Below the pieces are notes generated by a model. The model ran no database searches and was not told the origin of the DNA. It saw nothing but the letters and a program-made list of their open reading frames with translations. DNA of 64,000 bases, taken from the NCBI GenBank assembly GCA_051362555.1, contig CM120641.1, forward strand, positions 45,762,401-45,826,400, given 5' to 3'. The position numbers and the translations under genes were made by a program. This document shows positions 5,611 through 43,051 of the stretch, piece by piece. Every line of letters begins with the position of its first letter. Within the stretch, counting starts at the first letter, position 1. Source of the DNA: Lingula anatina (taxonomy: Eukaryota > Animalia > Brachiopoda).

Positions 5611-5663
5611 ATGCAGCAACCGATACCATCGGCCCCCGGCATCAGCAACACGGGGCCACCGCG
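5611..5663 (+). CDS. NPAS3: candidate alternative first coding exon 1a of trh/NPAS1/3 (MQQPIPSAPGISNTGPP-R)
   Basis: ATG at 5611, 17 codons + 2 nt, CCGCG|GTAAGT donor; phase 2 joins the bHLH exon at 49005 in frame. Confidence 0.6.
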
Positions 5664-8600
5664 GTAAGTGATTTCACTGCCTTAACTAGCCGGCGGCCTT
5701 TTAACAAAAGATGACCACGGCTGCGTGAAATTAATAGGTTATTGCCCTCTAATGTGTTTGTTACCCGCTACAGGTAACTGCCTTACCTTAAGGCTTGTTT
5801 CTTTCCATACTTCAGACTACTTTCTGTTATTAGAGGCCCATGAAAGGGGTGCTTGTGGGGGTAAAAGGCATGTGCAACAAACCTTGGGTAGTTATATGTC
5901 TCATGACATCTGAAAGTTTTATGTCATAGGTCTAATCATATTAAAATTTTGGTTTTAATTTTAATTTTATTTTTTAGTCTTCACCATGCATTTGTTAAAA
6001 TGTCAACTTAAAGTTACATGTATTGTTCTAATTTCTCCGTTTATTGGGTTAACTATATTTCATGACCTGTCATGCATTCAGACATAAGAATTTGATTAGT
6101 GTTCAACATGTTTTCAGGGTAATTGGTAATAAAAGAATGAATCCACTGGTTTTGTAGGGAATGTTTTTTATTTGTCCTTATCGTTTGCATTTATCCTTAT
6201 CCTATACAGCACAGTTATCTTTTTTATCCTTTGGAGAAGGTGGCAAGTTGATATCACTTGCCATTAATGTATACTTGCCAGTTTGAAGATATGATTATGT
6301 GGACTGGGTAGACAATTGTATGGTTGTCAAAAACAATTGTCTCTTCATAGAAAAAAGGGTTTTATGTATAATTATATTGGTACTTATATCACATTTGTTT
6401 GCAGGCTTTTCTAAAATTGTGTGCATAGCCAAACCATGTCAACATCTAGTTATTCAACAAGGAAACAATACTGTTATCATAATGTAATATATATGTTTGA
6501 TGAACTCACACATGTAGACTCAGCTGAATGTTTTGATATAACTGCTTAACACATCTGGAGGCTCAGTCTTCAGGGGAAAAACATACCAGTGTATTTTTGT
6601 ATTTCATATGTGTCAGTGTGTGTGAATGCGTGTGTGTGTGTGTGTTTAACTTACTACGATGACATAAAAAGGAAGGCTGCTGGTAATCCAAATTTTATTT
6701 TAATATGGCATAAAGTTATGTGAGAAATGATTTTTTTCATTCAAAGGGTACCTATCTCAGAACAGCACTTCTGTATAATACACAGTCTTTGATGTATCCA
6801 TGGTTTGTTCTATTTGTCTACACAAAATGGTAATATATATATATATATATTTGTGCTAGGTTGATAAATGTTTAAAAAGGTTATAATCAAATGTCCCTGT
6901 GCTCTTGACTGAACTCCCATTTTTGCTGTGTTATTTGATATATTTCAATTTAAAATTAGAAGATATCTCGGCATTAAACAAGACACCAACGTTGACCCCA
7001 GCTGTTACATAACTGAGTAATTATTGTTAGTTGTAACAGAGTTTTAAATACTTGTTAATGAAACAGAAGCATATGTTCTAATCTGCAATTGTTCACAATA
7101 ACATATTAAATTTTTAATGTCTTATTTTAATTTATGTATTTGAGATAAAATTAGTGACACAGTTGTAATTTAGCAGCAGTTTTAGAAAACTTTATACTAA
7201 CATTTTGATCTAAACAGATGAAGTTTTCCAAATTAAACAATATTTAAGTAGTAGAATATCAGGAAAACAAGGGAATAGACTTTTTGGCTTGGTAATTTGT
7301 AAAAAAAGGTATTAAAAGCAGTATTGTATAGATAAAAAGTCCCATGCTTGTTGAGCATGACATTATTCCCATTAACTCACAGGTTAAAAAATGAAAACTT
7401 CAAAGTAGACATACTATTATATATTAATCAAGTTGAACAGGACAGAAAAATAATAATTTGTTTTGTTCATGCTGTAATCTTCAAATCCAATTAAACCAAA
7501 AATGAATAAACTAGTCAAGTAATGAATGGGTGTATAGTAACAGCAAAGCCCATTTGTAAAGAAATTATTTATAGTACAAATTCGTAGAGCTTTTATATGT
7601 AGTTGTGTAAATGTGGGAAGAATACAGGGAATTTACACGTGTAGATGGCAAGCATTCACCACAAACAAATTTTCTGTACACGGGATCTAAGTGTATCTTG
7701 GTGTTCCACCCCTATCATTTGCCGTGTACATATAGAGTTCACTGTAAAACCATTAGATACAAAAAGTAGTAATGAACATTTAGTATACTTGCTAAAAAAA
7801 TGTAAAAAAAAAAAAAAAAAAAGATTTCAGGGATTAAACACAATAGGACAAGAACTGAGGCCAGATATGTTTGCAAGAATAAAGATATGTACACATGTAT
7901 ATAAATTGCTGGGTTAAATGCATACTTTATTCGCAGACTAAAATAACTCAGAAATAAACCGTTATATTTTAATAAATGTCCACTGCATGTTGCATTTTGC
8001 CATTGCTTTGGCACATAGAAATTTGGTCTCCATGGCATTTGTAGAGGTTGGAAGGTTTTGATTACTAAAAAAAATCCATTTTAATTTATTAAGTCACCAA
8101 CCATATAGTTTTATGGTGGTGCCTTTAGCACATAGGAATGTGGACTTGATACTTCATTGGTAACTTCCCTGTGACACTAATTTGAAACGGCATAGTTATT
8201 AATAAGTGTTTATATGTTGAATGATCAGAGTATAGTTGTGTTCTTCTGAGGCTTGTCATTCATAACGTTATCATGATTGCAGGAGAAGAAAGCAGACTGA
8301 ATGAAAATAATAATAAAAAAATAACATGTATAGTAGAAGCCACATTATTCAGATGCTTTGGGACTAGGAAATTTATTCACGTTACGCAAGGGTTGGAGTA
8401 ATTCAGTATTAATAAAAGTTTCAGCTAATGCTCTAGAGAAAAAAAAAAGCTGTACCACAGTATTTGTTGGAGATAAACAATGATTGGAGCTATAGGGTGA
8501 CAAGTAATGTAGAGTCTGCTGATCTGGTGCCTGGATACCATTGAATGATAAAAAACATAGGATGAAATACACCTAAATGTAGATGTTTTAGTATCAGTTT

Positions 8601-9611
8601 GTAACCCTAGCAGCCCAAGTCACACATCAACTCAAGTTCAATTGTAAAGAAGCACAACATATGTCAATGAACATGTACGTTGCACGGGTGAAGTCTCGTC
8701 TGAAATGTGTATGTTTTAATGTCTGCCAGGCACATGTGCACAGTGTAGTTTATGTTACAACCTATATGTGTTTCCCTGCATGTGATGATTTATATGAATA
8801 ACATGTGGGAAGTCTTTTTAGGTCACAGTCTGTTATGCAATCTGCTATAATTCAGTGCAGCATGAAAGCACCTGTTCCATGCATATAGCACCTCCCTGCT
8901 AATCACTGTATATCGTAGTAATTTTTGTAATTAGAGAGTGTGGCAGTAAGGTGAAGAAATAAAGTCAAGTACTATTCACAGCTGATGGTGCAGATATTGA
9001 ACTGGCTGTGACATTTAGCATTTGATTTGTCTTAGTTTTATTTCAAATTGTCACGCAGATTATGCTTTATTATTCTGTTTGCAGAATAAGATACTTGATT
9101 GTGTTAGAATTAAGTTTTTTTTAGTTTTTTTGATTGATGGCATTCGCAGAATATAGGGATATACAGTTAAATAAAATTAATAAAATATAAGTAAAATATA
9201 AGTTAACATTATTTTTAAACATTTTCACACGTGAATTTTAACCATTGATGTATACTTCTATCCAAAGGATTATCCCAGAGTCCATATTTTTTTTATCCTT
9301 AAATTTTTATTTCTTAAATAACAGTATAGTTGGACTTAAAAGTTTGAATAGTCCGCAACAAAGACAACACAATGTCAACATGTCTTTTCCACCCTTTGAT
9401 ATAAGAGTTATAATAATTATTGTTTTTGCTGTTGTTGTTGTTATTATTATTATTATTATTATTAGATTAAAACGTTTTTTCAAGTTACGTCTTCAGTTAA
9501 TGACTATGTTTATGATGTACTGTACAGATCTTAGATCTGTCTTGGGCTCCGTTCACATGGAAAATCTATTTTCTAAAAATCTAAAATCTTTTTTCGGTAT
9601 CTTGTGATCAC

Positions 9612-9732
9612 GGTCTGTGCCCTGGATACCCCGCGGCATAATTAATGGCAGCGCAGAGAATTAATTACAGCTTTGGAAGTAACTGGCTCGCGCTGCCCGT
9701 AATTACGCCGTGGGGTATTCAAGGCACAGACC
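9612..9732. repeat. 121-bp imperfect palindrome (about 43-bp arms), MITE-like or hairpin RNA
   Basis: ggtctgtgccctggataccccgcggcataattaatggcagcgc is the near reverse complement of gcgctgcccgtaattacgccgtggggtattcaaggcacagacc. Confidence 0.75.
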
Positions 9733-9861
9733 TAATGTTGACTATTATTAAAGAATTGAAAAAAATAGGGGATCTGAGTAGATATCTGTAGGCAGTGTAG
9801 AATCTAGATGGACTGGGGATATTTTTACAGAAAAAAATTGAGGTTGAAGGTTGATCCTTCA

Positions 9862-10027
9862 TAGGCCCGTAGCCAGCTAATTCAAAAGGAGGTTCTTTTT
9901 CTGAAAAAGTGGACCTTTTACTATGAAATCTTCCTGTACCTAGATAAAATTTTACCCAGAGGGGACCTTTTCCCGACAAAAAGGGGAGTTCTTTTGAACC
10001 CCCCAACCCCCCCTGGCTATGGGCCTG
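9862..10027 (+). mobile_element. MITE family A copy 1 (TIR about CAGGCCCGTAGCCAG)
   Basis: taggcccgtagccag ... ctggctatgggcctg; shared core ctgaaaaagtggacctttta also in the copies at 17731, 28850 and 43340. Confidence 0.75.
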
Positions 10028-11757
10028 CTTTATGTGCCATTTTTTAAACTTTGAAAGAAAATTTTATGATAAGTGCATCTTGTACATCAGTGACCTCTGT
10101 TGGCATTGTTTCAGTGGAGAGCAGGTTTCACAACAGTCCTCAACCAGTCGTAAATTAAATTAGACACCTGCATTATATAAAGAAAGACGTTGCTTATTTA
10201 GAACAATTATTACTCAGTGGACAAGTTTAACAGAGACAATTTGGTAATGTTCTTGGGCTGTTTTTAAAAGTTATTTAATATTCAAAGTTTGTCTTAATTT
10301 TAAAATCCCCCAAAATGGGCTTGCTTAAATTTAGGATAAATCTGTTAATAGTTCACCAGAACAAGTAAAATAATTGGCCTTAATGTAAGACATTTATTCC
10401 TTTTTACTTATAAGTAGGGGATCACACTTTAGTGATTCATCTCAGGTCAAAGTAGGCTAGTTAAAAGTTAAGACTGACTTTCCACTAGTTCATTTGTAAC
10501 ACCAGCCCAGTGAAGACTTCAGATGCTCTGTCTTTTGAAGTTATAAGACTACAATGCATCTGTTATGCTAACTAGATAGGATCCCAATGTTTACCATACC
10601 TAGTCATTCCATAAAGCACCAATAAGGAAGAGGGGGGGGGGGGGGGGGGGGGGGCGGGGGGGCAACTGACCCCTTCCAAGGATTGGGCAGTTAAAGTGAG
10701 TTAGCTGGAAAGGGATGACTTGCTTTCTGGTTTAAATTGCAAAGCCAGTTATGGAAATGATGGGATGGGTTCCAAAACTAAAATAAAAAAAGTGCAGTCA
10801 CATTAAGTAGTTTTTTTAATGGTCACACTTTTCAAAGGGAGAAAGGGTGGAAGGATTGGTGATATCAATCTTTGAGACCACTAAAGGATTGCGGAATCTC
10901 TGCTGCTTATTTTACAAATGTGTTCCAGGCATAGGGCATGTTTGTCTTCTTAACTTAATAACTGGTAGCTGGAAAAAAGAAAAAAAAAATACTGCTGATG
11001 GTTTAACAGTTAAAATAATGTAATGAATCCCATAATGTTTCAAGAGCTCCGGACTGCTTTATTTAAATACAACTCTATTTATTTGTAAAAATCAGCATTA
11101 GACTATTTTCATTGTGACTATACAGTCATCATATTGATTTATAAATCTGATCAAGCTTCTTTTCCGACTCCTCTCCCTGAAAATGGTACAGGCCACCTAA
11201 GCCATGGATGGCACAAGCCTGCGATCATTATGAATGTACTCTGGAGGAATTTTCGACAGTTTCTACCCTAAAGCTATACAATAAACGTATGGTTAGAAGA
11301 GACACCAGGCTAGATATTAAAAACTCCATCCGCTAATGGCATGTTTGTTCATTTGCAGTGCCTGGAGGCCTGCAGGTCGGACCCTAGTCATTCACTACCA
11401 GAGGAAATATAAAGATTTAACAAGGCTTTAATATCCTATGTATTCTAATAAGGTGACAAGTAGAGACCGGAAATGCTCATCTTAAAGCACTCCTCAGGTG
11501 TTTGTTAAGACAGCTTTGCTTTTAAGTTAGGGAGACTTGTAAGTCAGTGAAGATAAGTTATATAAAGAAATGTAATATTCAACCTGTGTGACTGACTTCA
11601 TCACTCCGTAACTTATGAATGGGATGTGTAGCGAGTTGGAACATACCTGCATTCTCGTAGTGAGTGGCTTGGCCACAGAATTCTTCTTCATCACCTCCAG
11701 TACCTAGATCTTCTGTAATGTTTACTACTGTTGCGGTCAAGTGGTATTAGAGGCTTG

Positions 11758-11873
11758 ATGGACGGTTGGTACCCCACCATGGCCAGTGAATGGCTGACCA
11801 GGCCCGGGACAAATGTCAACCTGAACACGATGAGTCCTGAGATGATGTTCCAGGACGAGTATGCACCATGCAG
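11758..11873 (+). CDS. NPAS3: candidate first coding exon 1b of trh/NPAS1/3 (MDGWYPTMASEWLTRPGTNVNLNTMSPEMMFQDEYAPC-S)
   Basis: In-frame TAA at 11716, ATG at 11758, 38 codons + 2 nt of GC-richer coding-like sequence, CAG|GTAATT donor; phase 2 joins 49005 in frame. Confidence 0.7.
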
Positions 11874-13124
11874 GTAATTTTGTTTTTTTTTTTTCCAAAA
11901 AGTCAGTTTGAGAATTTGATAAGCTGTATGAATGATATTTTATATGTGTGTATAAGGGTATTAATCATAGTGAATGAGATACTACCAGTGAGTGCATTAA
12001 TTATCGTGAGCAGTATTTATTTAAGTGTGATATAAAATATTAACTGTTAACTGATGTGCTATAGAACTAGCTCCCCCCCCCCCCTTTCTTCTTGTGATTT
12101 TGAACAGATGTAGATGACATTATTACTAGTAATCTTTTTGTTCATGAGGACATTATGAATAGTTTTTATGGAGAATTTTTAATGTGTTTCCAGTATCACG
12201 AGGTAAGGCTAAAGACCCCCCCCCCTAATATTTTCAACTTACGGCACCATTTCACCTTGCGGCCTGTGTATCGTCATCAAAGGTGTTAACTTGCATATGT
12301 AGTTTGCATTATAGCACCTAATGGGTTGTAACCATTAAAAACCAGTTTAATTTTTAAAAAGGTGATATATGTGAGAGAATGTGGCACCCTTCCTGGTAAG
12401 GCAGTTAAAAAAGTTTCTTGTGGTCTCATCGACCATTTCATTACTGTTTGCTCAGTTTTACATCTTGCCTGTAGCATAGGCATTTGAAAGTCAAAATTAT
12501 TGTCACTAATGTAAATCTAAAAACACTTGAAGGTTATTACTTTACTTTCATGGTTCCATTTTGATTGCTTTACATTAACTTCTTTGTGGGAAGGTAGCCG
12601 AGTTTTACGCTGAAGTCAAAGTTCATTAAAAGAAAATTTACAGACAGTTACCAATTTCTCAGTCTGCTTGTCCTTTCCTCTTTGTACTGATTTTATTTAT
12701 TATTTCTCTTTTTTTCCTGGCCTCAAGGGAGGTCCTTTGTACATACATAATGAATTAGTTGATTTGAGATGTTTATAATTTACGAATTATTAGTCACTCT
12801 AAAAAAAAAAAAAGATAAATAAATGAATAACAAGTCTGTGGCCAAAATGACATGAAGATGAAGGTGCTGAAAGTGAAAAAAGCATCATTCCCAATGAGAG
12901 GCTCATGTACACCTAAAAAAACTGTACGCAGTCCTTTTTCTTTTACTTGAATACCTGTCTTTTAAAGCTTAATAAACATGGTCACTTACTTGAAAGGCTT
13001 AAGCAATCCAATTATTGAAAAAGATGACGACCAGTGCAGGTTTGAGACCTTAAACATAAACTTCACTACAGTTAGTAAAAAATGCTGAATACAATCTTGC
13101 AGCAGGGTCTCAATGTGTGAAGTA

Positions 13125-13270
13125 CAGGGGCCGTTGCAATGGTCTGAAGGTTCATTGGTCGGAATGTTCACTATAGAACCTTCGAACCAATGAACCCTTG
13201 ATTAAAAAATTGATGAAAAAATATCACCATTTATGGACCAATGAACCTTTGGTCTATCAATGCACCCCTG
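13125..13270. mobile_element. palindromic MITE, unclassified
   Basis: Ends cagggg...cccctg; internal inverted units aaggttcattggtc vs gaccaatgaacc(t). Confidence 0.55.
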
Positions 13271-16200
13271 ATATACATAAAAGCTGGATACTCTGAAAGT
13301 AGACTCTGCCTGTAAAGTGGCATTTTGTTCAAAATGTATGTTTGGGAAGGAATGTGATTGACCTTTTTGTAATTGGTTATCAGCAGTGTGAATAGATAGA
13401 TGCCTTATTGGTTATTTTCATATTTGTGAGAAAATTTAGTAAAAAACTCTTTCCTTTGTGCATTTCAAAGAAAAGGTAAAAATATAGCATTAGGGATAAA
13501 GTGTCAGTACCATTTAAAGTTATTTATAGGTTTGTTATTATTTAATTAAGTAGCTCAAAGTTTGGCCAAATCAATTTGTTATATGAAGCAGTTACGTGAT
13601 AAATGACAAAACATTTTATATTCTATGGCTGATTTACATGGAAGTCCTGTTGTAATAGTTTTTTTTCTTGTTTTAGGTGTTTGAAAATTTTGTTTTTCTT
13701 TCTTAATGGTAAGATTGCTTCAATTGGCAGCGATGTAAAGGAGTCTAGAATAGATTGGTAGAATATACCTTTAGTCAAAATCTTTACACAACCAAAAAAC
13801 TTTTTTTCTTCATATGAGGGTTTTTGATTGTACGAGTGAGATGTGCATCAGTTAACATACTGTGGGACAGTTGTCATAGTTTTGTAAAGTTTCCTTGTTT
13901 ATAATGAGAAAAAAAAAACAAAAAAACATGCGCATAAGACTTAATCTTACCACTCAAACTTAAATTTAATAATAATTGGTCATAGTTCTCTTTGTTTATC
14001 AAGAATATTAGAATTACAAGCACACTTAGTCTTTTGTCTCTCAAACCCAATCAAAGTAATCTTGCCCATATTTCTCTGATTTATCATACAGATAAAGTAC
14101 ACTCAAACCAAACCTTCAGTCTCTCAATAATGTTGGTCATAATAAGCCAGTGGGCATGTCACCTGTGTTAGTCCCTCTGCTGTGACAGCACTAACATAGC
14201 AGCCAACAGGTTTTCAGGGGCTGTTTCCACAATAGAGCTTTAGACCGTAGGTTAAGTCTCAACTTTTAGATCAAAAATGTTTAGTCTACTTTTACCCTAG
14301 GTGAATCTGAGTAGTCAACCTATTAGTAAATGAAATACTGTTTCTGTTGGAAAAAAAAGTGGGAAATGATTTAGACCAACATTTACTTCTTTTAAGAAGA
14401 CTGCTACAGATTTATGCTGAGCTGGATATTTTCTGTGTGTTTTGAACAACTTTCAGTCTGAAGTTCTTGTGTGAAACTTTTGTGGCACTTGTGCCTAATC
14501 AACACCTTATTACAGAATCCCCACTGCGTTGATGATAAAACCACAGGTAAGACAAATCATTGTGTTCCATCCGTCATCAAAAACTAGAGCCTCAATTTTA
14601 TAGTTTTTTCTTCTTGTCTGATATTGAAAACCTGAAAAAAAGAAGATCTAAAGAAGAGGTATTTCAGTTATGTACGTGTGGAAATTTAAGTACTAGTACT
14701 GAAATATGTATGGATATTTACATATGCTGTAATAAAAGATAACCAGCATATCTTGATAGTAATTAGTGTTTCTTTAGTGTCTCACTAAAGAATGCATTGA
14801 TGAATGCAACTTCCTGAAAATAAAATTATTAACTACAAAATGTGCATTAATAGAGAAAACTAAAAGAAAGTATATTTGTAATGCAAAGCATGAAAGTTGA
14901 CATGAAATTATGAATAAATTTGTAGATGGCTCGTTTCTTTTTATGATAACTTAGTAGATACTTACTCACGTTGGACATTAAATTATAGATAAGAATCTTA
15001 ATTCATTTTCAAGCTACAAAATTTTCTGCTTGATGCATATTGGACGTGACTATTTTCTTCAGACCTTTTAGAATCTTGCTTGAAAGGTCCTGAGCATTTT
15101 GGAACAACCATAACCCGTTATTCTGTATTTGTTTTACTTGTAAAAAAAAAAAAAAAAAAAGGTTCAAAAGTAAATTCTGACATTCAAGAATTGCATGGTC
15201 TAGAGAACCAAATGACTACAGGTGAAAAGAAACCTGACAGAATTTTATGACCACCATCTGTGAATATCAGACACTTGTTGTTTACGGTCTCTCTATTCAA
15301 ACCTGGTTATGTCATGGAGGATGCGTCATGTTATGTATAAAATATTCAGCTCTAGTTGTAAGTATACAGATTATTTTCATCATGTAGATTGTTGGAGACC
15401 TAGGTTGATTTAACCAAGCTGCGTTGGCATGCTGAGACCTATTAATTCATATTTACTTCACACAGTCGGTGATTTTTTACCTTTTTTCGACTTGGGTAGC
15501 AGTTACCATTCTGTATGCTCTAACACACACTTGTTACGTCAGGGTACACAAGACAATTTTACAGTGTGTTCTTTCTAGGTCCTTGCAGTGAAAAATGAGT
15601 TCACTTTTTCAAATGCTGCTTTCGAGACCATTTGTTTTAAATTGCATTTTTCAAATATTTTAAATATAATTGAAAAATTGGGAGCATTGATGAATTTCAT
15701 TGACCACTGATTTGTAGCATGTAAATAAAAAAAAATTATGTAAGAATTTACTTTAATGGCAAGGCCATAAAATTGAAAAGGAGGAGAAAAAACATGAATT
15801 TGTAGAACTTGGAAGAAATGTTATTTTCAAATCTCATGATTCTTTTAGTTAACCAGTTAAAGTCGGATGATGTGTCTAGTGGGTTCTGAAGACTATGTAA
15901 CCAGCTGCTCCCTTAACATGTAGTTTGTATTCAATTGATCCTGTGCAGCCCGTTGATGCAATGAGGGATGACAGGCTGTTTTATTTTGATTTAATACTGC
16001 TGCTCCCCACATGCATATAACCTCAGCAAAATTGAATTAGCTGAATGTCAAGTGTCGGGAATGATGAAATTTCCAAATCATTTGAAAGAAATATTTGTGC
16101 AGGCTGTTAAGTTTTCATTTCTCCACAGCAAAGCTGATGTGGCAGGGAACATGGCTTGGCATGGATATAACAAAGTTACCTCCAATTTGGTTAGCTTTTG

Positions 16201-17730: not shown

Positions 17731-17910
17731 CATAACCTGTAGCCGGGGGTGGGGTGGTGGGGGGGGGGGGGGTCAAAAGAATCCTCCTTTTTGCTAGGAA
17801 GAGGTCCTCTCTGGGTAAAATTTTATCTCGGTACACGGAGGTTCCATTGTAAAGAGTCTACTTTTTCAGAAAAAAGAACCCCCCTCTTGTGATTCCCGGC
17901 TACGGTCCTA
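17731..17910 (-). mobile_element. MITE family A copy 2 (opposite orientation)
   Basis: cctgtagccgggg ... ccggctacggtcct; reverse complement of the family A core (ctttttcagaaaaaagaacc). Confidence 0.7.
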
Positions 17911-18368
17911 GAAGCAGACCATTTTTTAAAAAATCTAATCATTCATCTTATGTAAAAGTAGACTAAAATTTTGACATAAAGTTTAGATCAACTTTACATG
18001 ATTTTTTTCTTAAAGCCAAAAACACCTGCAAAGGGAGGAAGCTGCATTTGACAGGGATCCATGTGGGCGTGGGCAAGTGCTAATAATGTGGCTACTGGTC
18101 CATGAAGTCATTGGGGAAAAAAAATAAAAGATGTCTTTTACCTAGTGAGGTTAGACTGAGCAGACTCAATGGTAGACTGAGTTAGGCTATGTGACTATAC
18201 TTGTTGCATTCTGTCTTGCACAGTGTATATTGAATGATGGTATATGCTGGCATGTACCGAAGTTTTGTGGCAAAGAAAAACTGGAGTATGAAATGGTATG
18301 ACATACGGCATATGGGTCGTACTTGAATTATAAATGTTCAGTGTCTGGGAAAACTACTGGTTTACATA

Positions 18369-21300
18369 CGGTAAAGTGCCATGAATTTCGAACGGCTCTT
18401 GAATTTCGAACGATCTTAAAATCGGCCGTCTGGAGTTTTTTCTGGACCATGAATTTCGGCCAGTAAGCAATTTTGCGCGATCTTCATTTCGTGAATTTCG
18501 TACACCTTAAAATCGGCCACCGGGCTATTCTCGCGCTTATAAAGATCTAACAGTCGGCAATGTTGCCCTAGCGTACCTTTACCTGAGTACTACGTGTGCG
18601 GCCCACGGTGCAGGATAACGATCAGTACAGTTAGTTTAGGACGCTAAACAACATCGTCATATCCATTCATTCAGATAACAGGAGAATCTATTAAGAGTTG
18701 TACTGTCGGGCTGTTGTTTCTTTACCGCAGTATTCGGTGTGAGATAGCGATCGGTAGTTTTGCTGAGGCGCACAATAGCATTGTTATCGTAGAGACTTCA
18801 GTAACAGAACAAAAGAGCAATATTAAGAGCTGCAATAAAGATTACCATTATTGCTTTCTTGTCTCGCTCAGATCGTTCACGATCTCCCGCTGACGATCTT
18901 CTGCTAATGAAGTCCCTTGAAATGTACAAATGAAATGAAAAATATTTTTAAAAATAATAAATTCCAATAGGGAGGGATGGAGGGTTAAAAACAATCGAGA
19001 ACGATCTCCGGCTGACGATCTGCCGCAAACGAAAGCCACTGAACGAGTATGAGCTTTCTCGTTTCACTCGGATTGCGACGCTGACGATACGAAAATTGCG
19101 TTCTCGTCTCGCCCTTTGGCTTACGAAGTCTCTTTAACAAATATGAAAATTGCCTCCTGGTCTCTCTCGGATTGCGAACTATCTCTCGCTGAAAATTTGA
19201 AATTTTCCTTTTTGTTAATCAGCTTTGTCAGTTGCCGTGCGTATGAAGGTCCGGAAGGTGTCCCCTTTTACAAATTGGCCTGTAGTTTGCTTAGTGTTTT
19301 GTACCGCATGAAGGTCACTCTTGTCACTGCTGCATACGGCGTGGAATGTGTATCTTAAAGTTCATAGAAACATTTTATTGTGTTTTGTAAGCTTTAGGAA
19401 GTAGTTTCGTCGTGACTGAATATCAGCGTACACTACAAAGTAGTACCATTCATCTGTGACGCATCATAAAAGCTAGGTACGTCAAATTACTCTAAGAAAA
19501 TTTCTTACAACGTCCACGGCTGTCCCGACAAGCCAAGACGTCATTAAAAAAAGTCGCAAGCCGTCTAGCCGTCTTTGGAAATATAGGCCGTCCGGTGATG
19601 TCAGCGGCCGTCCAAATGACGGCTGGACGGTTCGCTGGGAAAAGCCTTGCTCATAAGGGTATATTTATTAAACTAGGGGCTTACTGACATCACCCAGCTT
19701 ACATGCGGGTGCATGCCTCCCAAAATTATATTAAAGGATAAAATTGTAATATATCTAAATTTAATTGTTTGTAAATTTTGTAAAAATTGCCCATGCCACC
19801 CCGTTAGTTTGGAGGGTTAAGCTGGATCAAGTCCGTGTCAAAATTCTTTGAAACTTTGCAGGAAAAATCAATCTTCCTTTGTTTCTCTGGCTCCTTGTTT
19901 AGCCCGATGATCAGATTTATCTAGTGCCCCCAGGTCTGCTGGAGCAGCTCTTTGAAATAACACACAGGTAGATTTTTATCTGAGATAAATATCGCGTTCG
20001 ATACACTCAAGACAAAAGCTACCTGTGGGCTGAAGGGCACTTTACCCTCTAATTAAGAGGTAAAGCAAGTTCCAGCTAGATGGACGATTAAGATCGGACT
20101 TCAGATGGTAACTAGTATTGTTTACCTCAGTTCTGTGAAAGCAAACGAGAAGGGTGTCAGAACAATGGTGCATATATAAATTATACAGAGAATTTGTACA
20201 TTCAGGTGACCTTAACATATAATCGAAGGGGATTTTCGATAATATTTCTTGAAAAGTACACTAGATTTATAGAGAATAATATCATGGTTGGCCAAAAAAT
20301 TATATACGCACAGTGTATCCGTGCGTATGCCTGGTTACGCCACTGTCGCAAACCATATCCTACTGACTACATGAAAATTGCCTTCTAGCATGGACAAAAA
20401 GTCCAAGCTTCTATGCTTGCTCGGATCGCTGACGATCTCTTGCTGTCGAATATAGTAACGAAGTCCCTTGAACTAGTGTGGAAATTGACTTATTGTCGCG
20501 CTCAGATCGCTCACTATCTCCCATTGACGATCTTCCAGTCCCTTGAACGAATATAAAAGCTGCCTTTTCGGTTTACTCTAGATTACCTATCTCTCGCGTT
20601 TGTTTGAAGATGGTTTCAATGACAAAACGTACACGCTTTTCAAATGCGTACATTGACGCAACTATGCGCCAGGAAATCAGTTGCTGCTGCTTGTAAAGAT
20701 TGGGTTGCCTGAGCGAAAAAAAAAAAAAAACGGCCCTGCACCCCCCCCCCCAAACCTAGTATATTTGATCGCAGACAACAATCAGCGGTCATCTTGGTCG
20801 CAGCGCACGACGGAGAGAGACCGTAATACACAGTTCGGCTGCCGTGGCGAAGGCTACCTGTGCGCCGCACATACCGATCTGCGGTCGTAGTGGCCTCTCT
20901 GCACGGAGGAGAGGCCGTAGTGCCGAGGCCGGCTTCTGCAGGGAAGGCTACGTATGCGTCGGAGACACCGACCCGCGAACGGCGAGATGAGGACGCATTC
21001 GCGCGTAAAGCTCCGCCCGACTTTAACGGTAAAGGCAACGAACCTGGTCGGGGAAGACACTTATCGCAGATGAAGGCTACCTGCACGTGCGCCATAGACA
21101 CTGATCGGCTGTCGTCTCAGTTTCAGTGCACGGAAAGGAGCAACGGTAACACTAAGCTTCCATAGTAAAGGTTATCTGGCCGTGACAGACGCTGATCGTC
21201 GGCCGTCTCTCCCTCCGTCCACTCCCGTTCTGAGCGCCAGGATCTTTTTGGAAAACGACACTAGTTTCTGGCTGCCAGAATCGCGTTTGAAAAACGACAC

Positions 21301-21654
21301 TACTGACGCATTATTTTATAAATGGTGCAAGGACGTGCTGTTTTGCGGCCCTAGACAACAGTACCGCTCTATCTATGGGCCATACACAGTGATCGGGTGA
21401 AAGTACGTGTATATCTTTGGTCGCAATTACCGACACTCACACATCATACATTATGGTAACTCTAAATAGATCGTCGGGAGAAGATAACAGAAGGCCTAGC
21501 GACGAACAGACAACTTCCGGTCAAAATTGACAGAATTCCATGAAATTCGAACTTTCGGAAGTTCTGAGCACCTCCATTTCATGAATTTCGGCCAGAACGA
21601 TCTTTTCCCAAATTTAATTATTTTCTACTGTTCGAAATTTATGGCACATTACCG
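18369..21654. mobile_element. 3.3-kb non-autonomous DNA transposon, Tc1/mariner/pogo-type ends
   Basis: TA|CGGTAAAGTGCCATGAATTTCGAAC ... GTTCGAAATTTATGGCACATTACCG|TA: 25-bp TIR with 2 mismatches and TA duplication. Repeated subterminal GAATTTCG motifs; CpG-rich interior with no recognisable transposase ORF. Confidence 0.8.
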
Positions 21655-24600
21655 TATATACACTGTTGCATTACTTAAACTTTGTATAAAAATTTAAATG
21701 ATACAAAGATCAGTTATGTTTTAATTGAAGTTATTAAAGGCTTTAGCTGCTCTTTATGCTCAGGAAATTATGCAAATCTTTTATAGTTATTCATGTGAAT
21801 TTTTTTGACCAATTTTGATGTTCTCCATCTTTACCCTTCTTCAGATGCCACCTTCCCTTGAAAAGTCTCCAGGTTTTTATGTGTCTGTCTATTCTGATCA
21901 CTGTCGTCACTGTCTCTGTTGTAGTCACTGTCTAACTCGTCTGTTATTCACCCTATAACTGCCAAACCACATTTATGTATTACTTAAAAGTTACTGATTA
22001 GCTTTGTTTGGTGAAAAGACAGGTTCCTGTGGAAAATCATCATGATTCGGTTATTTTTACAAAAGTTACTGTCAACTGGAATGTGCGTGTTGAGGTTAGA
22101 GTGCAGTAATAGGAATGGCTTTTTGCAAGCTATAATTGCTGTTTAGTTTCAGGTAGAGTCTAAAAACAGCCCCAAAGATCAAGATTTGGTGGGCAGAAAC
22201 TTAAAATGCAAATCATAATGTATAAATATAGAGAGATTAAGTGAGCTATGTGACTATATATTATTATTATTCCACTGACTAGTAAAAAAGTGTGCTAGAT
22301 TTTACAGTTTTAGATGACTAACACTTTTATTCCATTAAAGCTCACATCCCTCTATCTTGGGGCTAGTTGAGAAGTGTATCAGATTAAAAGGGGGGAGGGG
22401 AGCTGATGTAGAGGTAATTTTAGTGTATAAAGGTTTACCAAGGCATATGATTTGAAAGATAGAAAGTGAAGATTGGATAGGCACAGTGCTTTTAAAAATC
22501 CTTATTTTGGTACTGCTCGTTACAAAATTACACCTTATGGCACCATTTGTAATAAAATTGAAATAAAAGGTAACTGTGAGACAGTCAAAGTTACACAGTC
22601 ACAGTCCTGTAGCCCACAGGGGAGGTCTTTTCCTGACAAAATGGGCTTATTTTCCTCCCCAAGCCTGAGGGCCTTTTACCTTCCAACTTACAGAGGCACA
22701 GATCTCCTGCTTATTTGTCTATCAATTTATAAGTCGGTGCTGATAGTATTGTGGGAGTGCTAATGTATTTATTGTCAAAATACATTGATGTATTGATTTC
22801 CACTACATTTTGAAATTGGAAAGCAGTATGGTCTTAAGGTCTTTTTAATTTCGATGTATGTAAAAATTGGCATGTGAGAAATATTTTTATGTTGAGACCA
22901 TAACTCGTCCTGAAAATGTGTTTCATATGTATATGTGAGTATATATTTTGACAATGAAACACTGAAAAACAAAAACAACAGTGGAAAAAAAAATCAGATG
23001 TTCACACCTGCAGGATAGTTATTTTATACACCTGTATTGCATTGTTAAGATTCCAGGAACAAACATTACTAATTTTTTGGTATTTTTGTTTTTCTTTCTC
23101 CCCCAGAAATGCTTGTTTTAATTCATTACAGATTACTAATATATGGTAAAATTGAACAGTTCAACTTGTATGAGGGTTGTTAACAGTTCTGTGTATCTTT
23201 TTATGTATGAGACATTCACCTGTTTTACACAAATAGCTGTTATTTTTAACAATAAGTACGAATACATTGTTTCACTTGCTGCAAGCTGATTTAGCAGTTG
23301 TCTTAAGATTTGTGTTTTGTATTTTATAAGAGTTTCTAAAGTTTCCTGTATTAAGAAAGGTTAAGTAAGATCATTTTATTCAAAGTTTGTACTAATGCCA
23401 TTTATCTCTTAAAGGGGCATATGAACTGAGGAAAAGTGTTAAATATTGTTGTTGAGATGGTGTCTGAAATAGTTTATGTTAATCATCGCTATGTGATGTA
23501 AAAATTATGTGTCAAAAAACAATTGCAACATATAGTTTCTTGTCCGTTTTGTGTGTTCAGTCTTACACCCGCATTCAACACATTTTATTACTACTACTTC
23601 TACTACTACTACTACTGCTACACCGTAACACGAACTACCAAATTAAACCAATGTGACCATTGCAACATTTGATAGCACCTCGGCGCAAGGTAAGCCTCAC
23701 AACATTTTACGTCACATTTACATCATTGACATAGGCCACTGCCCTCTCTATTATGTTCCTACTTTCAAGTTTTGTGTCATGTTCTCTTCTTTTTATTCCT
23801 TTTATGAAGTTACAAGTTTCTTCTCTACAATGGCTGCCATTTTTTTATTAGAGCAAATCCCTTGCAGTCACATGGTACCCCTACTCACTTCGCTTTCACA
23901 TATGGAAGTATGGGTTGTAAATGTATCTTTTAAATACTATTGTTACTGATTGAACTCCTATTTAGTAATGAAAGTGGGTTTACTGATTGTGCTAGATGTT
24001 TTTCCACTGGGTGGTATGGTTGCAGTGGTCATAAGTAGTTTTACTGAAAAAATGTACATGTAACTTTTGCCAAAAAAACACTTCAGAATGAATTAATGTG
24101 CCCTGCTTTTAGCTATCTTGGAGTTAAGTCAATTTCCCCACGCTTTTTCCCAACCAGTTCATTCATATATGCTAGTATCCTAGCCACATAACACATTCTT
24201 GACTATCGCTGTTGGAAAAAAGTATATTACAATTGATACGGATTCATATCACAGTAAGATTTTCATTTCCTGTCAATACGGACTGGGCGTGTATTTCTTA
24301 GTGTGTTCTTGCAACAGGCAAGAACTAGAAAATGTTTTTGTTTTTACCTGAGAGCCATCACGAAGTTCCTAGGAGTCAGAATAGCAAAATATTACTATAT
24401 GATATTCTTTTAGTCATCCCAAAAAATTCACAGAGAAAGCCCTCTTGTCACGTACTAGTACTTGGTGCTTGCAAACCAAGAAAGAGCACACAAAATGTAA
24501 AGTAACAGATATATCAGTTTATGTCACAAATTATCAGGTATAATTGCACATACTGGTTTTATATAGTCTTAAGCTACGTGTTTGTGAAGACTAATTTTGA

Positions 24601-28849: not shown

Positions 28850-29018
28850 CAGGCTCGTAGCCAGCAGTTTCAAAAGGGGGGTTCTTTTTTTCTGAAAAAG
28901 TGGACCTTTTACCATAAAACCATCATGGACCTAGTTAAAATTTTACCTAGAGGGGTCCCTTTTCCGACAAAAAGGGTGGTTCCTTCGACCTCCCCCCTCC
29001 CCCATGGCTATGGGCCTG
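28850..29018 (+). mobile_element. MITE family A copy 3
   Basis: caggctcgtagcca ... tggctatgggcctg; closely similar to 9862-10027. Confidence 0.75.
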
Positions 29019-29213: not shown

Positions 29214-29214
29214 T

Positions 29215-29253
<39 letters not shown>

Positions 29254-29255
29254 TT
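29214..29255. repeat. (ATTT)n microsatellite
   Basis: Read directly from the sequence. Confidence 0.9.

Positions 29256-29580: not shown

Positions 29581-29583
<3 letters not shown>

Positions 29584-29620
<37 letters not shown>
29584..29620. repeat. (TG)n microsatellite
   Basis: Read directly from the sequence. Confidence 0.95.
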
Positions 29621-29622
<2 letters not shown>

Positions 29623-31329: not shown

Positions 31330-31585
31330 GGTTGCACTCACAATGATACTATGGCATAAGGTAGTTCAAATGAACTCAGCGGGGACTCTTGCTGAATGCA
31401 ATCAGAATAGAAGATAAACAGTCCTCCTGCTGATGTTGAGTAGCATACAGAAAAGCTGGTGATTATACAAGTGCTTTGGAAACAAGAAGAGGTGCATTAA
31501 TCTGTTCATCTGATTGCATTCAGCGAGAGTCCCTGCCGAGTTAGTTCTAACCACCTAGTACAATAGTTTCATTGTGAAAGCACCC
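31330..31585 (+). mobile_element. PIF/Harbinger-like MITE family B copy 2
   Basis: TAA|ggttgcactcacaatga ... tcattgtgaaagcaccc|TTA; internal 22-bp inverted repeat at 31385-31406 / 31509-31530. Confidence 0.75.
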
Positions 31586-33249: not shown

Positions 33250-33530
33250 GGTGGGTGGATAGTGATGTGTTTAGGTCGGAATATGCTGGATAAAGAGGAT
33301 GGATGGATGTGGGTGGGTAAGGGGGGCATGGATGGATACTTATGTAGGCTGGTATAAAGTTAGTGGGTAAGGGGGGCATGGATGGATACTTATGTAGGCT
33401 GGTATATAGTGGGTGGATAGATGGATATAGTTAGGTAGGTGGATATGAAAGTGGATGGATAAGAAAGAGATGGATGGATAGTTAGGTATGTGGGTATGGA
33501 GCTGGGTGGATAAAGAGAAAGGTGGAGGGG
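33250..33530. repeat. GGAT/GGGT low-complexity tract with a 50-bp tandem duplication
   Basis: gtgggtaaggggggcatggatggatacttatgtaggctggtata occurs at 33313 and 33363. Confidence 0.8.
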
Positions 33531-36500: not shown

Positions 36501-39347
36501 TGCTAATTAGCCCTGGGTTTCCTTTTGATTGTTTAAAGTTTTTTTTTTAACTTCAAGATTTTCATTGAAAATTAGTACATATGGGAAGAATGTTACTCCC
36601 AACTCCAAGTCAGCTTGCAGAGTCAAAGAAAATAAATTTTTGAATTTTCAAAAGAATGGGAGTTTTAGTTCCACTGCAAGTACCCATCAGTAACTGTATA
36701 CTGTAAATTTTGAGATTATGGGCATAAAAGACAAGTTGCTTTGATGTTTCAAAAATGACATTTTAGTCAAAGTGCTATGTTCTTTTGAATGTTTGATTTT
36801 TTTTTGTTTTAGACAAAGGTGAATGTGAAAGTTTGTCTTTGCAGATATTTTAGATCTCTCAAGAGTTGAATTCCTTAAGATGGAAACATCTTTGCTGATA
36901 TGAGAAAGTGATATTAAAATTGCACGTTACAACTATTTCTGAGCATTGCAATTAATTTATGAAACAAGTGATTTGGCCGTAAATAAAAAAACTCACATGG
37001 TATAGCCAGAAAGAGTAAAGATAGGCTAATTAGCTGAAATGCAGACATATAAAAACTAATTGACTGAAGTAAGCAAATCAATGCGCAATAAAACTTTCTG
37101 AAGAAATGCATTACGACATGTACATGACTTGACGTTTTTGAAGTGTCTGTCTGATTCGGGGTTTATGTTCACAAATGTCACCCACCCTCAAGTTATGCAA
37201 TATTGCAATTTTTGAAGATTAATTTTTTAGCTACAAAAACATACTTCCTTCCATGAACCACTTTCTATACTTTTTTTCAGAATGTATGCACTTCTACATA
37301 AATCCAAAGGTTATATGGATTATTTTCTTTAATTAATGTCATTAAAACCTATTAGTTTGTCTGTAGTTCTGCTTACTATGAACATAAGAAGTCTTTAATG
37401 ATGTAAGTGGCAATTAACTGCAACCATGTGAGGAGGCATACCTTGCTTTTGTCAGAAAAAATGTGATATGTAGATTTTTTCTTGTCCTTTTTGTTCATAT
37501 ATATATATTCATCTTACATCTGAAATAAAGGAAACTGCCATCTCATTTGAAATGATGTTTTTATCAAATGAATAAATCAGTGATTTATTCAAGACAAAAT
37601 GTGTCAGTTGCAAATAGATTTACTAGTATTTACATGAATTTGTATTTTCAGTTAAATTGCTAATGTAGACTCCCTTTTCAACTTTGGAAAGGGATCAGAA
37701 TTGGTTTTGAGCGTGTAATTTGTTAACCACTACAGAGACCATCTTGAACTTCACAATGAATGTGTAGACACATGGAGGTCAGCTTAGTATCTACAATTTT
37801 AATTAAGCCTTTTTAGTGTTCCAGAAGCATAACCTCTTTTGAAAAATGGACTCATTTCATTGCTTTTTTATAAGTTCTGACTTGCACCTTAGTTAAGACT
37901 AGTTGTATTGTTAGAATCAACAAGTTTTTTTTAGGCATCTAGGTATTTGCATGCGAAATAAAAAAATAATAATCAGTTAGTTATTTTCTGAGTTAAGTCT
38001 GAGTTATATATACTTACAAACTAGTTATATAATTCTGTCACCACATTGGTGACATCAGGCAAGTAAATCATGCAGCTGAGACAAAACCCCTATGTTCATT
38101 TTTTTCTTTTATTCCAGAGAAAAATAATTAAAAGCTGCCCAAATTCCTTGTAAACAGATTGAACGTCAACTCCGCAGAAAATATTACTGGGAAGAAAAGA
38201 TGGGAGAATAATTATAGGTGCAAAATTATATCTTGACAGTATCTGGTAACTTAGTTATAACCCTGCTTTCAGAAAGTGATAATCACACAAATTGCATTTT
38301 GACACCATCAGATAACGTCTTTAGACCTGAGCTGGGGAGAATGATTATGACTCAAAATTGTAATGTTGACAGAATCTGATAATGTCCATAAATCCCAACT
38401 CTCGGATTTTGACTTTCTTATTGAAAAAAGATATAATCCTGAAAACAAAGAAAGCAGCTTTTCACAGAGGATTTTGATGAATGAGGCCCATTAGTCTAAG
38501 TCAGTACCCAAAGGCCGCTTTGACCAACTATGGCAGGGGGGCAAATGATGTAATTACAATGAGCCATATCTAATAGATACTCATTAGGACCATCCAATTC
38601 TTCAATGGACCGCTGAGAGAGATAATATCAGGGGTTAAACTCTTCCCAAGCTCAAGTGAAATATTTGCATGGCCTTTCGTACCCATTACAAGATTAAGCG
38701 CTGTTTCTTTTGTTTTTTAGTGATCTCCGCAGGGGGTTGGGTTCAGGGTGAATTGGATTATGGGTTGATTAACGAGGTGTGATCGGAGATGATAGGAGAT
38801 AGAGGGTCTGTTTTCCAACTTGCTAATCCAATAAAGGAAACATATTATACAGATGAGGTGGGCACCCGCGGGACTGAATGAACTTGGTAATTGAGCAAAA
38901 ATGAAGGAAATGGGCATCTGAAAAAGTGGTTCTTAGGGAAGATTTGTAGACTAGACCTGGAGACCCTTTATCTTGTACTAATTACCTAGAGGGTTGTTTC
39001 AGTTATCCTTTGTCTTGGCCCGAGATTGAAAGTGCTCGGCAGGAACCATGTGTTTATAATGACCCTTAAAACAAGACCAAGTTTCTGAGAAGGACGGGGA
39101 CTTTGGAAGCCCTTGAATATGGTGAGCGCAAAAGAGCAATTATTCCTTGCGAGGTACATTCGGGAATTGCTGTTGTCAGTAATGGTTCTATGGAGATTCT
39201 TTAGATAAGGCCAAAATGTCCCAGAACTGGCATGTATTTTCATGTTTAAAAGATGTCGTTTGAAGGGGAAATGAACGTGGGTTGAAGCAGGGAGGTTGTG
39301 CTAATTTTATGGCCCAGACCCTAAGAGTCTGCATCACCCTCGCAGCA

Positions 39348-39358
39348 CCGCCATTTTG
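39348..39358 (+). promoter_or_regulatory. YY1 consensus site in a putative internal promoter/5'UTR
   Basis: CCGCCATTTTG matches the YY1 consensus; it lies about 60 nt upstream of the ATG of candidate exon 1c, within a roughly 1-kb GC-elevated non-repetitive block. Confidence 0.45.
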
Positions 39359-39416
39359 GTGCGATATCCGAAAAAAGCAGGCCATTGCTGGCAGCTCGCA
39401 CCTTGGAAGTCGTGTG

Positions 39417-39481
39417 ATGGATCTTTCGCTTCATGGTTATAACACGGGGCAGGAGAATGACTTGTGTTTCCGTCACTCATG
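39417..39481 (+). CDS. NPAS3: candidate alternative first coding exon 1c of trh/NPAS1/3 (MDLSLHGYNTGQENDLCFRHS-C)
   Basis: ATG at 39417 (gtgATGg context), 21 codons + 2 nt, CATG|GTAAGT donor; phase 2 joins 49005 in frame. Confidence 0.6.
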
Positions 39482-41781
39482 GTAAGTTATTGGTGACAAG
39501 AAAAGAGAGCTGAACACCAAAATTATTCATTGTAGCTAAAATTACATGTAGTATTATTGTTTTCTATAACAAGAATTGTTTTGAAACTCCATTATTTTTT
39601 TATTTTTTATATGACAGAAAAAATGAATTTTAAGTAGAAGTTTTAAGAATAAGAAGTGAAATGCTGATGTATGAAGCGATAATGGCAAACAAGTGCGATC
39701 ATGATTTACAGTTAAATATCTTGATGAGTTTTTTGCAGGAAACCTAAGGTAGAAAATGACTTAATGTCAGGTAAACTGGGTTAAAACAGTCTTACAAAGA
39801 CCAAGGTGTGCAAAAAGATAAATGATGCAACTTTTTTGCTGTATGCTCCAATTCACAAGGACAATCATGTTTTATGGCAATAAAAATAATGCAATAACAA
39901 CAATAATAATGATAATATAGTACAGAAGTTTTTTTTTTTTTGTTTGAAGTCGTTAATAATGAATGCCTTGCCTCTCACAAAATGATTAATGGAGCATCTC
40001 TTTTACTGCTTTTATGCACAAGGATAATAATAATGATAATAATAATAATAATAATCTTTAAGATTGTTCATAGCTCCAGGGATTTCTATTTACTAATGCA
40101 CATAATTTCACCAATTACATCACCGAGTGAGAATCATCCACAGGTCTACCAGCACGTAACGACCTGGGGGCATTTAGCCTGATATAGTGCTCTTGAGACA
40201 AGAGCAAAATGTAGTTGTTCCACTTATAATTTTGTTCCAAAGTTAATGAGTACTAGCAGTTAAATGTTAGTAAATAATAATATAGTGTTATTTTAGCTAT
40301 AGGCCAATGATACTGTTAGGGACAGAATCATAACTTATAGAGGGGAAGGGATTCAAAGTTATAACATCCCCCCACCCCATTCATAAATCTGAATCTGCAG
40401 ACTTATTTTTGTATGGTGTAGTGTTCAGATATGGCAAGGTGCCACGTAGCCCCTTTCAGTTTAAACCAAACATTGGAATTATTGGTTTGTTGGGATGTAA
40501 ATTATTTTTATAATGCAAATTGTGTGCTTTTGTTTCACTGTAGCAAAAAAACAGACACTGACACAAAAGGTTGTTTGGTATTCAATTTTTAAAAAATCAT
40601 TTCAATACCTTCAATGAATGCTTTTGCAGTACTGTATGGGCTTACTATGTTTAAACATATCCCTGAAGGATGGATATATAAAGAAAAAAGTAAATCATTA
40701 TACCGCATTTTAAATGGAGCACATCTGTTTTTGACTAGTTTAAAGAGTGGTTTTTACTCCATATATATATTCATATCATAATTTTGCCTCTTTCTTCTCC
40801 AGTTTGTCAATTGATTCTAAGCTCCAAAGACATTTTAGCGACAAAACCTCATATTTAAGAAAATATTTATATTTGCAAATACAGAATTTTTCCCCATTTT
40901 TTCAAAATTAAACTGGAATGGTGGGAATTGGGAATTTGAGTCCAATTTTCACATGAAATTGGGAACTATTATTTTGAAAAGCATGATGGCCTCCTTGATA
41001 GTAGAACTCTATTCACTCTAATGGATTTGAATTAGCCAGCAAGCAAAGGTTTGCATTCCCAAAAGAACTTAAGTTTGAAAGTACTTATAAGACTGAAAGT
41101 TATGGTCCACTTCAGTTCAGGATATAGTTGTTACAAGTATATGAATGATTTTTATAGAATGTAATAAGGCTATTAGGTGTGTCTTTTTTGTTTGTATGTT
41201 TTTTAATTAACAAGCACAATTCTTAATTTAATGGTGTATTTTTGATTTACCTTGGACCAGAGCAGATTAATTTTTTTTTCCTTGAAAAGGTTTCGGTCTT
41301 CATTTTTTTTTGTGAAACCTCCCCAGTTTGCAGTTTTTTTTTCTGTATCCCATAATGCAACTCACTGAATCTTCCTATGGAAATATATAGTTATTTAGAA
41401 TTGCTAATGAATAGGGAGTCTATTTTTATGGCATTAAAAAAACTGCCTAGAATGCTTGTTATGTGGCAGTATACTATGCGGAACGGACAAGTTTTATGCA
41501 AATCGATTGTGCCTGTACCATTAAAGTGCTTGCCCCATTTATTTCAAACCCACTATCTTTTTGCATATTATAAACATTATAAGTGGTTTTAGGGAGTGCA
41601 TATATATAGTAAACCTTGGCTTGACTGTATGGGGATGAGGTCAGGGCTGCTTTACTTCTCCAAATATAGAACTAACACACAAGGGAAGGAGAGAGCATGG
41701 CCGATAATAATGTGGCTGAAAAAAATATCGCTGGAGCAACGTTGAAATTGACTTGAATAGGAGTCTGACTGACGAGAGGAC

Positions 41782-41786
41782 ATGCC
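41782..41786 (+). CDS. NPAS3: candidate alternative first exon 1d contributing only Met-Pro
   Basis: In-frame TGA at 41770, ATGCC|GTAAGT, phase 2; TATATATA at 41601-41608 about 180 nt upstream. Confidence 0.4.
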
Positions 41787-43019: not shown

Positions 43020-43051
43020 CACACACACATAGTCACACACACACATTCACA

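What the first reader, a model, noticed from the sequence alone, without database searches (positions are those of the whole stretch)
5611..41786. Array of alternative first exons, all phase 2, feeding one constant bHLH-PAS body
Seen: the bHLH exon (49005) starts in phase 2 with no Met before the basic region. Four ATG-initiated mini-exons each end in phase 2 at a good donor and read in frame into [11 protein letters not shown]: 5611-5663 (GTAAGT), 11758-11873 (CAG|GTAATT), 39417-39481 (GTAAGT) and 41782-41786 (GTAAGT). Each sits at the end of a locally GC/CpG-elevated, non-repetitive block. Inference: a multi-promoter, variable-N-terminus system giving proteins of about 926, 947, 930 and 910 aa. 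The unrelated leader peptides would sit right next to the DNA-binding basic region, with first introns of about 43, 37, 9.5 and 7 kb. That could tune tissue specificity, transcription delay or protein stability. Caveats: phase matches occur by chance one time in three, and other ATG/donor pairs (5145-5157, 14532-14546) are not phase 2. A weak acceptor at 11750 could also let 1a splice in frame into 1b.
Basis: partly seen in the sequence, partly recalled or inferred. Interest (0 to 1): 0.8.

Follow-up and report, generated by a model that had tools for sequence, protein, structure and literature searches.

The report
Alternative leader exons of brachiopod trachealess
This lamp-shell developmental regulator gene (trachealess/NPAS3) splices at least two different short front exons onto one shared body, likely from separate promoters; the arrangement is ordinary for this gene family, but a probable third front exon ends in a short motif shared with insects, spiders, ribbon worms and octopus.

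Summary
The gene is trachealess/NPAS3 of the brachiopod Lingula (382 of 383 aligned residues match a Lingula anatina RefSeq fragment, apart from one extra residue there). The four ATG-to-GT segments, phases and protein lengths are as stated. Phase alone is uninformative: 26 of 84 strong donors upstream also close a phase-2 ATG frame. RNA reads join 1a (5663) to the bHLH exon in 2 of 4 runs and 1d (41786) in 2 of 6. 1c (39481) had no listed junction in 6 runs, but ends F-x-H-S-C like annotated Trh leaders of nemerteans, octopus, chelicerates and insects; that motif plus donor occurs once in 49 kb (0.015 expected). 1b has neither reads nor a homologue. Transcription starts were not mapped, so 'first' exon and 'promoter' are inferred. 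Twelve other species in the search results already have two unrelated annotated N-termini at this junction, and mouse Hif1a and Hif3a have published alternative first exons. Verdict: real for two, probably three, of four exons; an ordinary alternative-promoter arrangement, not a variable-exon array. The conserved leader tail is the only mildly surprising part.

The parts
5611..5663 (+). Leader exon 1a, coding part (17 codons plus split codon); 5' extent unknown
   Evidence: Loose read ends before the bHLH exon match 5633-5662 in X3 (4 reads, 0 differences) and X7 (6 reads, 2 differences, both synonymous third positions)
11758..11873 (+). Candidate leader exon 1b, unsupported
   Evidence: In frame, CAG|GTAATT donor, GC rank 4 of 52; no read group at its expected place 49002 in 4 runs; 0 hits among 1.84 billion proteins; junction tail rank 239-279
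39417..39481 (+). Probable leader exon 1c, ending F-R-H-S-C; further in-frame ATG at 39309
   Evidence: Tail matches F-x-H-S-C of annotated Trh leaders; motif plus TG|GT once in 49 kb, 0.015 expected; rank 2 of 2198, 2 of 1908, 3 of 1454 open GT sites; no listed junction in 6 runs
41782..41786 (+). Leader exon 1d, coding part (Met plus split Pro codon); transcribed exon reaches at least about 90 nt further upstream
   Evidence: Joint 41786-49005 GT..AG, 3 reads from 3 starts in X7; loose ends X7 3 reads (median 94 nt), X9 4 reads
49005..49246 (+). Shared bHLH exon, starts in phase 2, no Met before the basic region
   Evidence: Covered in all 6 runs laid; PF23171 E 9.8e-21; NPAS3 chain 5sy7_B E 2.4e-36
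51040..51119 (+). Body exon 3, followed by a GC-AG intron
   Evidence: Read joints; boundaries; open frame
51747..51836 (+). Body exon 4 (PAS-A region)
   Evidence: 5' joint in reads; 3' boundary from sequence and frame
52084..52258 (+). Body exon 5
   Evidence: 3' joint in reads; 5' boundary from sequence and frame
52614..52723 (+). Body exon 6
   Evidence: Read joints; matches P0160
53141..53334 (+). Body exon 7 (start of PAS-B)
   Evidence: Read joints; 100% identity over 64 aa to Lingula anatina trachealess-like P0160
54087..54193 (+). Body exon 8
   Evidence: Read joints; matches P0160
56023..56170 (+). Body exon 9
   Evidence: Read joints; matches P0160
56604..56713 (+). Body exon 10
   Evidence: Read joints; matches P0160
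57026..58497 (+). Last coding exon (low-complexity C-terminal region, poly-Q) to the stop codon
   Evidence: Read joint and depth; 32-42% identity to C-termini of Trh-like proteins

Best explanation
The Lingula trachealess/NPAS3 gene splices at least two different short upstream exons (1a, 1d), and probably a third (1c), onto one shared bHLH-PAS body, likely each from its own promoter. Shown: two donors joined to 49005, full body spliced and open. Inferred: because the shared exon starts in phase 2 and has no Met before residue 31, any upstream exon that is to yield a DNA-binding protein must supply an ATG and end in phase 2, so the common phase is a requirement of the shared exon, not a sign of a special array. 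The main role is likely regulatory (separate promoters for different tissues or stages); 1d adds only Met-Pro, so a leader peptide is probably dispensable for the core factor, which would dimerise with ARNT/Tango as its orthologues do. 1c is likely the orthologue of an old protostome leader exon ending F-x-H-S-(TG|); 1b is likely a rare exon or a chance ATG-GT pair.
For: Junction reads for 1a (X7 6, X3 4) and 1d (X7 3, X9 4). Both differences in the X7 1a consensus are synonymous (n = 2, weak). 1c tail matches Tubulanus, Lineus X3, two Octopus X2, Stegodyphus, Pycnogonum and insect leaders; 44 of 93 distinct leaders among 110 full-length proteins carry F.HS[CW] (mostly insects). Twelve species among the retrieved proteins have two unrelated N-termini at this junction (8 insects, Lineus longissimus, 2 Octopus, Pycnogonum). 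Published parallels: Hif1a I.1/I.2 and Hif3a 1a/1b (PMC13760070, passages); human NPAS3 isoforms differing next to the bHLH both bind ARNT (PMC6276216, passages).
Against: No transcription start was mapped; 1a and 1d each have an acceptor-like site 94 and 117 nt upstream of their donors, so either may be an internal exon behind a non-coding first exon. Only 17 listed junction reads in all, mates not collapsed, from 6-30% of each run. 1c had no listed junction in 6 runs, and in the unanchored tail comparison one or two apparent chance sites outscored it (10858; 2479, 15919). X1, X2 and X4 cover the bHLH exon but their upstream exon was not identified. Genomic DNA of the homologues was not seen, so their leaders being separate phase-2 exons is inferred from peptides.
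Confidence: 0.78

Rival explanations
1. One promoter (the CpG-rich block near 5150-5400) with a non-coding first exon; 1a and 1d are alternative internal exons that supply the start codon.
For: Acceptor-like sites at 5569 and 41669, strong donor at 5375 (10.1 bits) with no ATG frame; loose ends show only the last 30 nt.
Against: 1d lies 36 kb downstream of 1a; no joint into 1d from 38601 onward was listed in X7 and its coverage is confined to one bin, 41269-41935. A joint from upstream of 38601 was not testable in that call.
Confidence: 0.1
2. One reading: four working first exons forming a variable-N-terminus system in which leader peptides and intron lengths tune stability, DNA binding and timing.
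For: Two exons spliced, a third conserved; 1b ranks 4 of 52 in local GC, beside the two supported exons 1a and 1c; X3 showed only 1a and X9 only 1d among listed groups.
Against: 1b has no reads in 4 runs and no homologue; 1d encodes two residues; human NPAS3 isoforms differing beside the bHLH both bind ARNT; read counts too small to show tissue choice; no functional test.
Confidence: 0.1
3. Only 1a is the real first exon; 1d is low-level leaky transcription or cryptic splicing and 1c a dead remnant.
For: 1d donor is weak (5.8 bits), seen only in two runs of one study (X7, X9); 1c has no listed reads.
Against: 1d makes 3 of 9 listed 5' junction reads in X7 and 4 of 4 in X9; its ATGCC is kept in the X9 consensus despite two upstream differences; 1c keeps an open frame, a 9.9-bit donor and the conserved tail.
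Confidence: 0.07

Closest known systems
Trachealess (insects, chelicerates) / trachealess-like (nemerteans, molluscs) annotated isoform sets
   Same: Different N-termini joined at the same point before I-L-E-x-R-K-E; one class ends F-x-H-S-C as 1c does
   Different: These are database annotations, not experiments I could read; 1a and 1b resemble no retrieved leader; no cassette exon like the insect or spider H-S-W extension was found between 39481 and 49005 (one weak open candidate, 46149-46226)
Mouse Hif1a exons I.1/I.2 and Hif3a exons 1a/1b (NEPAS)
   Same: Class I bHLH-PAS genes with alternative first exons giving N-termini that differ by 8-12 residues ahead of the bHLH, with promoter-specific expression (PMC13760070, passages)
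   Different: Paralogous genes in vertebrates; promoters there are mapped and tested; Hif1a I.1 uses a Met in exon 2, which this gene lacks before the basic region
Human NPAS3 isoforms 1 and 2
   Same: [quoted passage not shown]
   Different: The passages seen do not say these come from alternative promoters
Clustered protocadherin / UGT1A variable-exon arrays (recalled, no call)
   Same: Several upstream exons spliced to a constant body
   Different: There the variable exons are many, tandem paralogues and encode whole functional domains; here 2-4 unrelated leaders of 2-39 residues

Membership tests
Trachealess/NPAS1/3 (class I bHLH-PAS) | HIF/SIM-type bHLH at the N-terminus | tested here: met
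   PF23171 E 9.8e-21, above cut-off
Trachealess/NPAS1/3 (class I bHLH-PAS) | PAS domains after the bHLH | tested here: met
   P0160, near-identical to the window's body, hits PAS_3, PAS_11, PAS (PAS-B region only, PAS-A not scanned)
Trachealess/NPAS1/3 (class I bHLH-PAS) | Closer to NPAS3/Trh than to HIF or AHR | tested here: met
   PDB: NPAS3 126 bits, NPAS1 94, HIF1A 67, AHR 30; named best hits are trachealess(-like) at 85-92% identity. No tree was built
Trachealess/NPAS1/3 (class I bHLH-PAS) | Dimerises with ARNT/Tango and binds DNA | not tested
   Inferred from orthologues
Alternative-promoter bHLH-PAS genes (Hif1a I.1/I.2, Hif3a 1a/1b type) | Two or more mutually exclusive upstream exons joined to the common bHLH exon | tested here: met
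   1a and 1d junction reads
Alternative-promoter bHLH-PAS genes (Hif1a I.1/I.2, Hif3a 1a/1b type) | Each upstream exon has its own transcription start | not testable with these tools
   No CAGE or long reads among the 9 listed runs; acceptor-like sites upstream of 1a and 1d
Alternative-promoter bHLH-PAS genes (Hif1a I.1/I.2, Hif3a 1a/1b type) | Tissue- or stage-dependent use | tested here: inconclusive
   X3 1a only (4), X9 1d only (4), X7 both (6, 3), X2 none listed; counts small, tissues not known
Variable-exon arrays (protocadherin/UGT1A type; features recalled) | Variable exons are tandem paralogues encoding whole domains | tested here: not met
   Leaders are 2-39 residues and unrelated; no repeat of 40 nt or more links them among those listed

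The most novel reading that the evidence does not exclude
The trachealess locus has kept a leader-exon switch since the protostome ancestor: one promoter supplies a conserved F-x-H-S-C tail directly abutting the basic helix, which changes DNA binding, redox sensitivity or stability of the factor, while other promoters supply free leaders (down to Met-Pro), so promoter choice is a conserved functional switch of Trh from brachiopods to insects.
Probability: 0.2. Interest if true: 0.55.

Novelty: new member of a known kind. Interest (0 to 1): 0.27.

Why it matters
Mainly an annotation gain: the only Lingula trachealess protein retrieved is a 412-aa RefSeq fragment without the bHLH; the window gives the complete gene with at least two verified 5' variants. 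The conserved F-x-H-S-C tail, shared by Lophotrochozoa and Ecdysozoa, points to an old leader exon that can be tested in Drosophila or another insect; I found no paper on it in nine searches, which cover only the open-access library held.

Tried and rejected
No whole genome is held for this window, so no genome-wide controls. No RNA holder was listed by index; 9 raw-read runs were offered by species label, 6 were laid, X5, X6, X8 were not. In one search repeat-derived loose ends filled the table (147 rows hidden), so X1 and X4 could be tested only for 1c and 1d. The region of 1a and 1b was never laid directly, so their 5' extents and a possible 1a-to-1b splice at 11751 (in frame, but no pyrimidine tract; the stronger acceptor 11700 gives a stop after 19 codons) are untested. 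phmmer of the 1b peptide: 0 hits (38 aa, low power). tblastn of homologue leaders against 1-49004 gave only low-complexity or chance hits and did not pick up 1c. MAFFT of the 1c peptide with full-length proteins misplaced it and was discarded. Rfam: 0 matches. The CpG-rich block 18-22 kb was considered as a further promoter and rejected as a likely transposon. X7's 1a group has agreement 0.88, what one foreign read in six would give (0.86 if 1c); this cannot be told from noise and is not counted. Earlier-findings look-ups returned nothing. PMC6695205, PMC11461159, PMC6801399: term look-ups showed nothing on Trh leader isoforms. No supplements were read.
Full report
Identity of the gene. The exon at 49005 encodes a HIF/SIM-type bHLH (PF23171) whose closest solved structure is NPAS3 and whose named best hits are trachealess(-like) proteins. 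Exon 53141-53334 is 100% identical over 64 aa to Lingula anatina 'protein trachealess-like' (P0160); the assembled body matches that 412-aa record over 383 aligned columns with one mismatch at the edge and one extra residue in the record. The window therefore holds the complete trachealess/NPAS3 gene of Lingula; the public record lacks the bHLH. Read joints confirm 8 of the 9 body introns; the 51836-52084 joint was not listed and rests on sequence and frame.

Check of the observation. Phase is no evidence by itself: of 84 donors at 7 bits or more in 1-49004, 26 close a phase-2 ATG frame, 27 a phase-0 and 21 a phase-1 frame (matrix recalled).

RNA evidence. Nine raw-read runs were offered by species label; six were laid. 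Over 38601-58600 (X1, X4, X7, X2) the joint 41786-49005 appears in X7 only (3 reads, 3 starts) and no joint from 39481 is listed. Over 48850-49300 (X2, X7, X3, X9) the loose ends before the bHLH exon are the 3' end of 1a (X7 6 reads, X3 4) and of 1d (X7 3, X9 4). Nothing is listed at 49002, where 1b would fall; 1c would pool with 1a at 49004. Partly laid reads outside the listed rows number 2 (X2), 3 (X7), 0 (X3) and 3 (X9). So 1a is seen in 2 of 4 runs, 1d in 2 of 6, 1c in 0 of 6 and 1b in 0 of 4, at a threshold of 3 reads, with 6-30% of each run read and mates not collapsed. The two differences in the X7 1a consensus are synonymous, as are 11 of 12 listed differences in the bHLH exon. No start site was mapped: 1a has an acceptor-like site at 5569 and donors at 5157 and 5375 upstream, 1d an acceptor-like site at 41669, so 'first exon' remains inferred.

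Conservation. Among 110 full-length homologues with the junction motif there are 93 distinct leaders; 44 contain F-x-H-S-[C/W], 30 an M-[DE]-L-H motif and 19 neither (insects dominate). The F-x-H-S-C class includes Tubulanus, Lineus X3, Octopus sinensis and O. bimaculoides X2, Stegodyphus, Pycnogonum and insects. 1c ends C-F-R-H-S-C. The pattern F-x-H-S plus TG|GT occurs once in 49 kb, at 39481, against 0.015 per 49 kb in 200 order-3 Markov simulations; the pattern was defined after I noticed the match, so I ran a test without it: scoring every open GT site against all leader tails puts 39481 at rank 2 of 2198 (6 residues), 2 of 1908 (8) and 3 of 1454 (12); the sites above it have weak donors and match single tails. 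1a ranks 124-713 and 1b 239-279, that is, no resemblance. The switch between H-S-C and H-S-W in insect and spider isoforms fits an exon ending in H-S-TG followed by different exons (inference from peptides; their DNA was not seen). The 1b peptide has no hit among 1.84 billion proteins (low power).

How it works. Shown: at least two upstream exons are spliced alternatively to one body. Inferred: they come from separate promoters; since the body has no Met before residue 31, each must bring an ATG in phase 2 or the product loses its basic region (Lineus isoform X4, P0134, is annotated as starting at that inner Met). The shared phase is thus forced by the common exon. A two-residue leader (1d; compare Octopus P0142 with three residues) suggests the leader is dispensable and the point is promoter choice. 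X3 showed only 1a and X9 only 1d, which hints at sample-dependent use, but counts are too small. Whether the conserved 1c tail does anything is untested.

Comparison with what is known. Twelve species in my results already carry two unrelated annotated N-termini at this junction: Zophobas, Agrilus, Euwallacea, Harmonia, Ptiloglossa, Hylaeus, Vanessa, Papilio xuthus, Lineus longissimus, two Octopus species and Pycnogonum. Mouse Hif1a (I.1/I.2) and Hif3a (1a/1b, NEPAS) have published alternative first exons with small N-terminal differences and promoter-specific expression (PMC13760070, passages only). Human NPAS3 isoforms 1 and 2 differ beside the bHLH and both bind ARNT (PMC6276216, passages only). 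It is not a protocadherin-type array (features recalled): the leaders are short and unrelated. Nine searches and term look-ups in three more papers showed nothing on Trh leader exons or the F-x-H-S-C tail; subscription papers and supplements were not seen.

Verdict. Real for 1a and 1d, probable for 1c, unsupported for 1b. A new member of a known kind; interest 0.27. The boldest open reading, a protostome-wide functional leader switch, has probability about 0.2 and would merit 0.55.

Noticed in passing
window 51120-51746: GC-AG intron after body exon 3; the joint is seen in all 4 runs (listed as 51113-51741, shiftable by 6; only the GC..AG placement has an AG acceptor and keeps the frame)
   Followed up: yes
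window 18366-21657: 3.3-kb CpG-rich element with 28-nt terminal inverted repeats (93% alike) bounded by TA and no long ORF (longest 158 aa): likely a non-autonomous DNA transposon; shows that CpG richness here is not specific to promoters
   Followed up: partly
window 5150-5610: CpG-rich block upstream of 1a with donors at 5157 and 5375, an acceptor-like site at 5569 and out-of-frame upstream ATGs at 5570 and 5594: possible non-coding first exon and uORFs
   Followed up: partly
window 11681-11700: Strong acceptor-like site upstream of 1b; joined to 1a it gives a stop after 19 codons, but it could serve a non-coding upstream exon
   Followed up: partly
window 57383 and 57610: Reads carry a 3-nt insertion at 57383 (X7 9 of 10, X2 4 of 4, X4 2 of 2), matching the extra Asp in the RefSeq protein, and a poly-Q length variant near 57610 in X7
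   Followed up: partly
window 49005-49246: Runs X7 and X9 differ from the window at more places than X2 and X3, nearly all synonymous: likely a diverged population
   Followed up: no
window 9896-10027, 17759-17874, 28887-29018, 43440-43497; 59673-60066, 61059-61446: A dispersed intronic repeat family in both orientations, and two arrays of a 160-nt unit downstream of the gene
   Followed up: no
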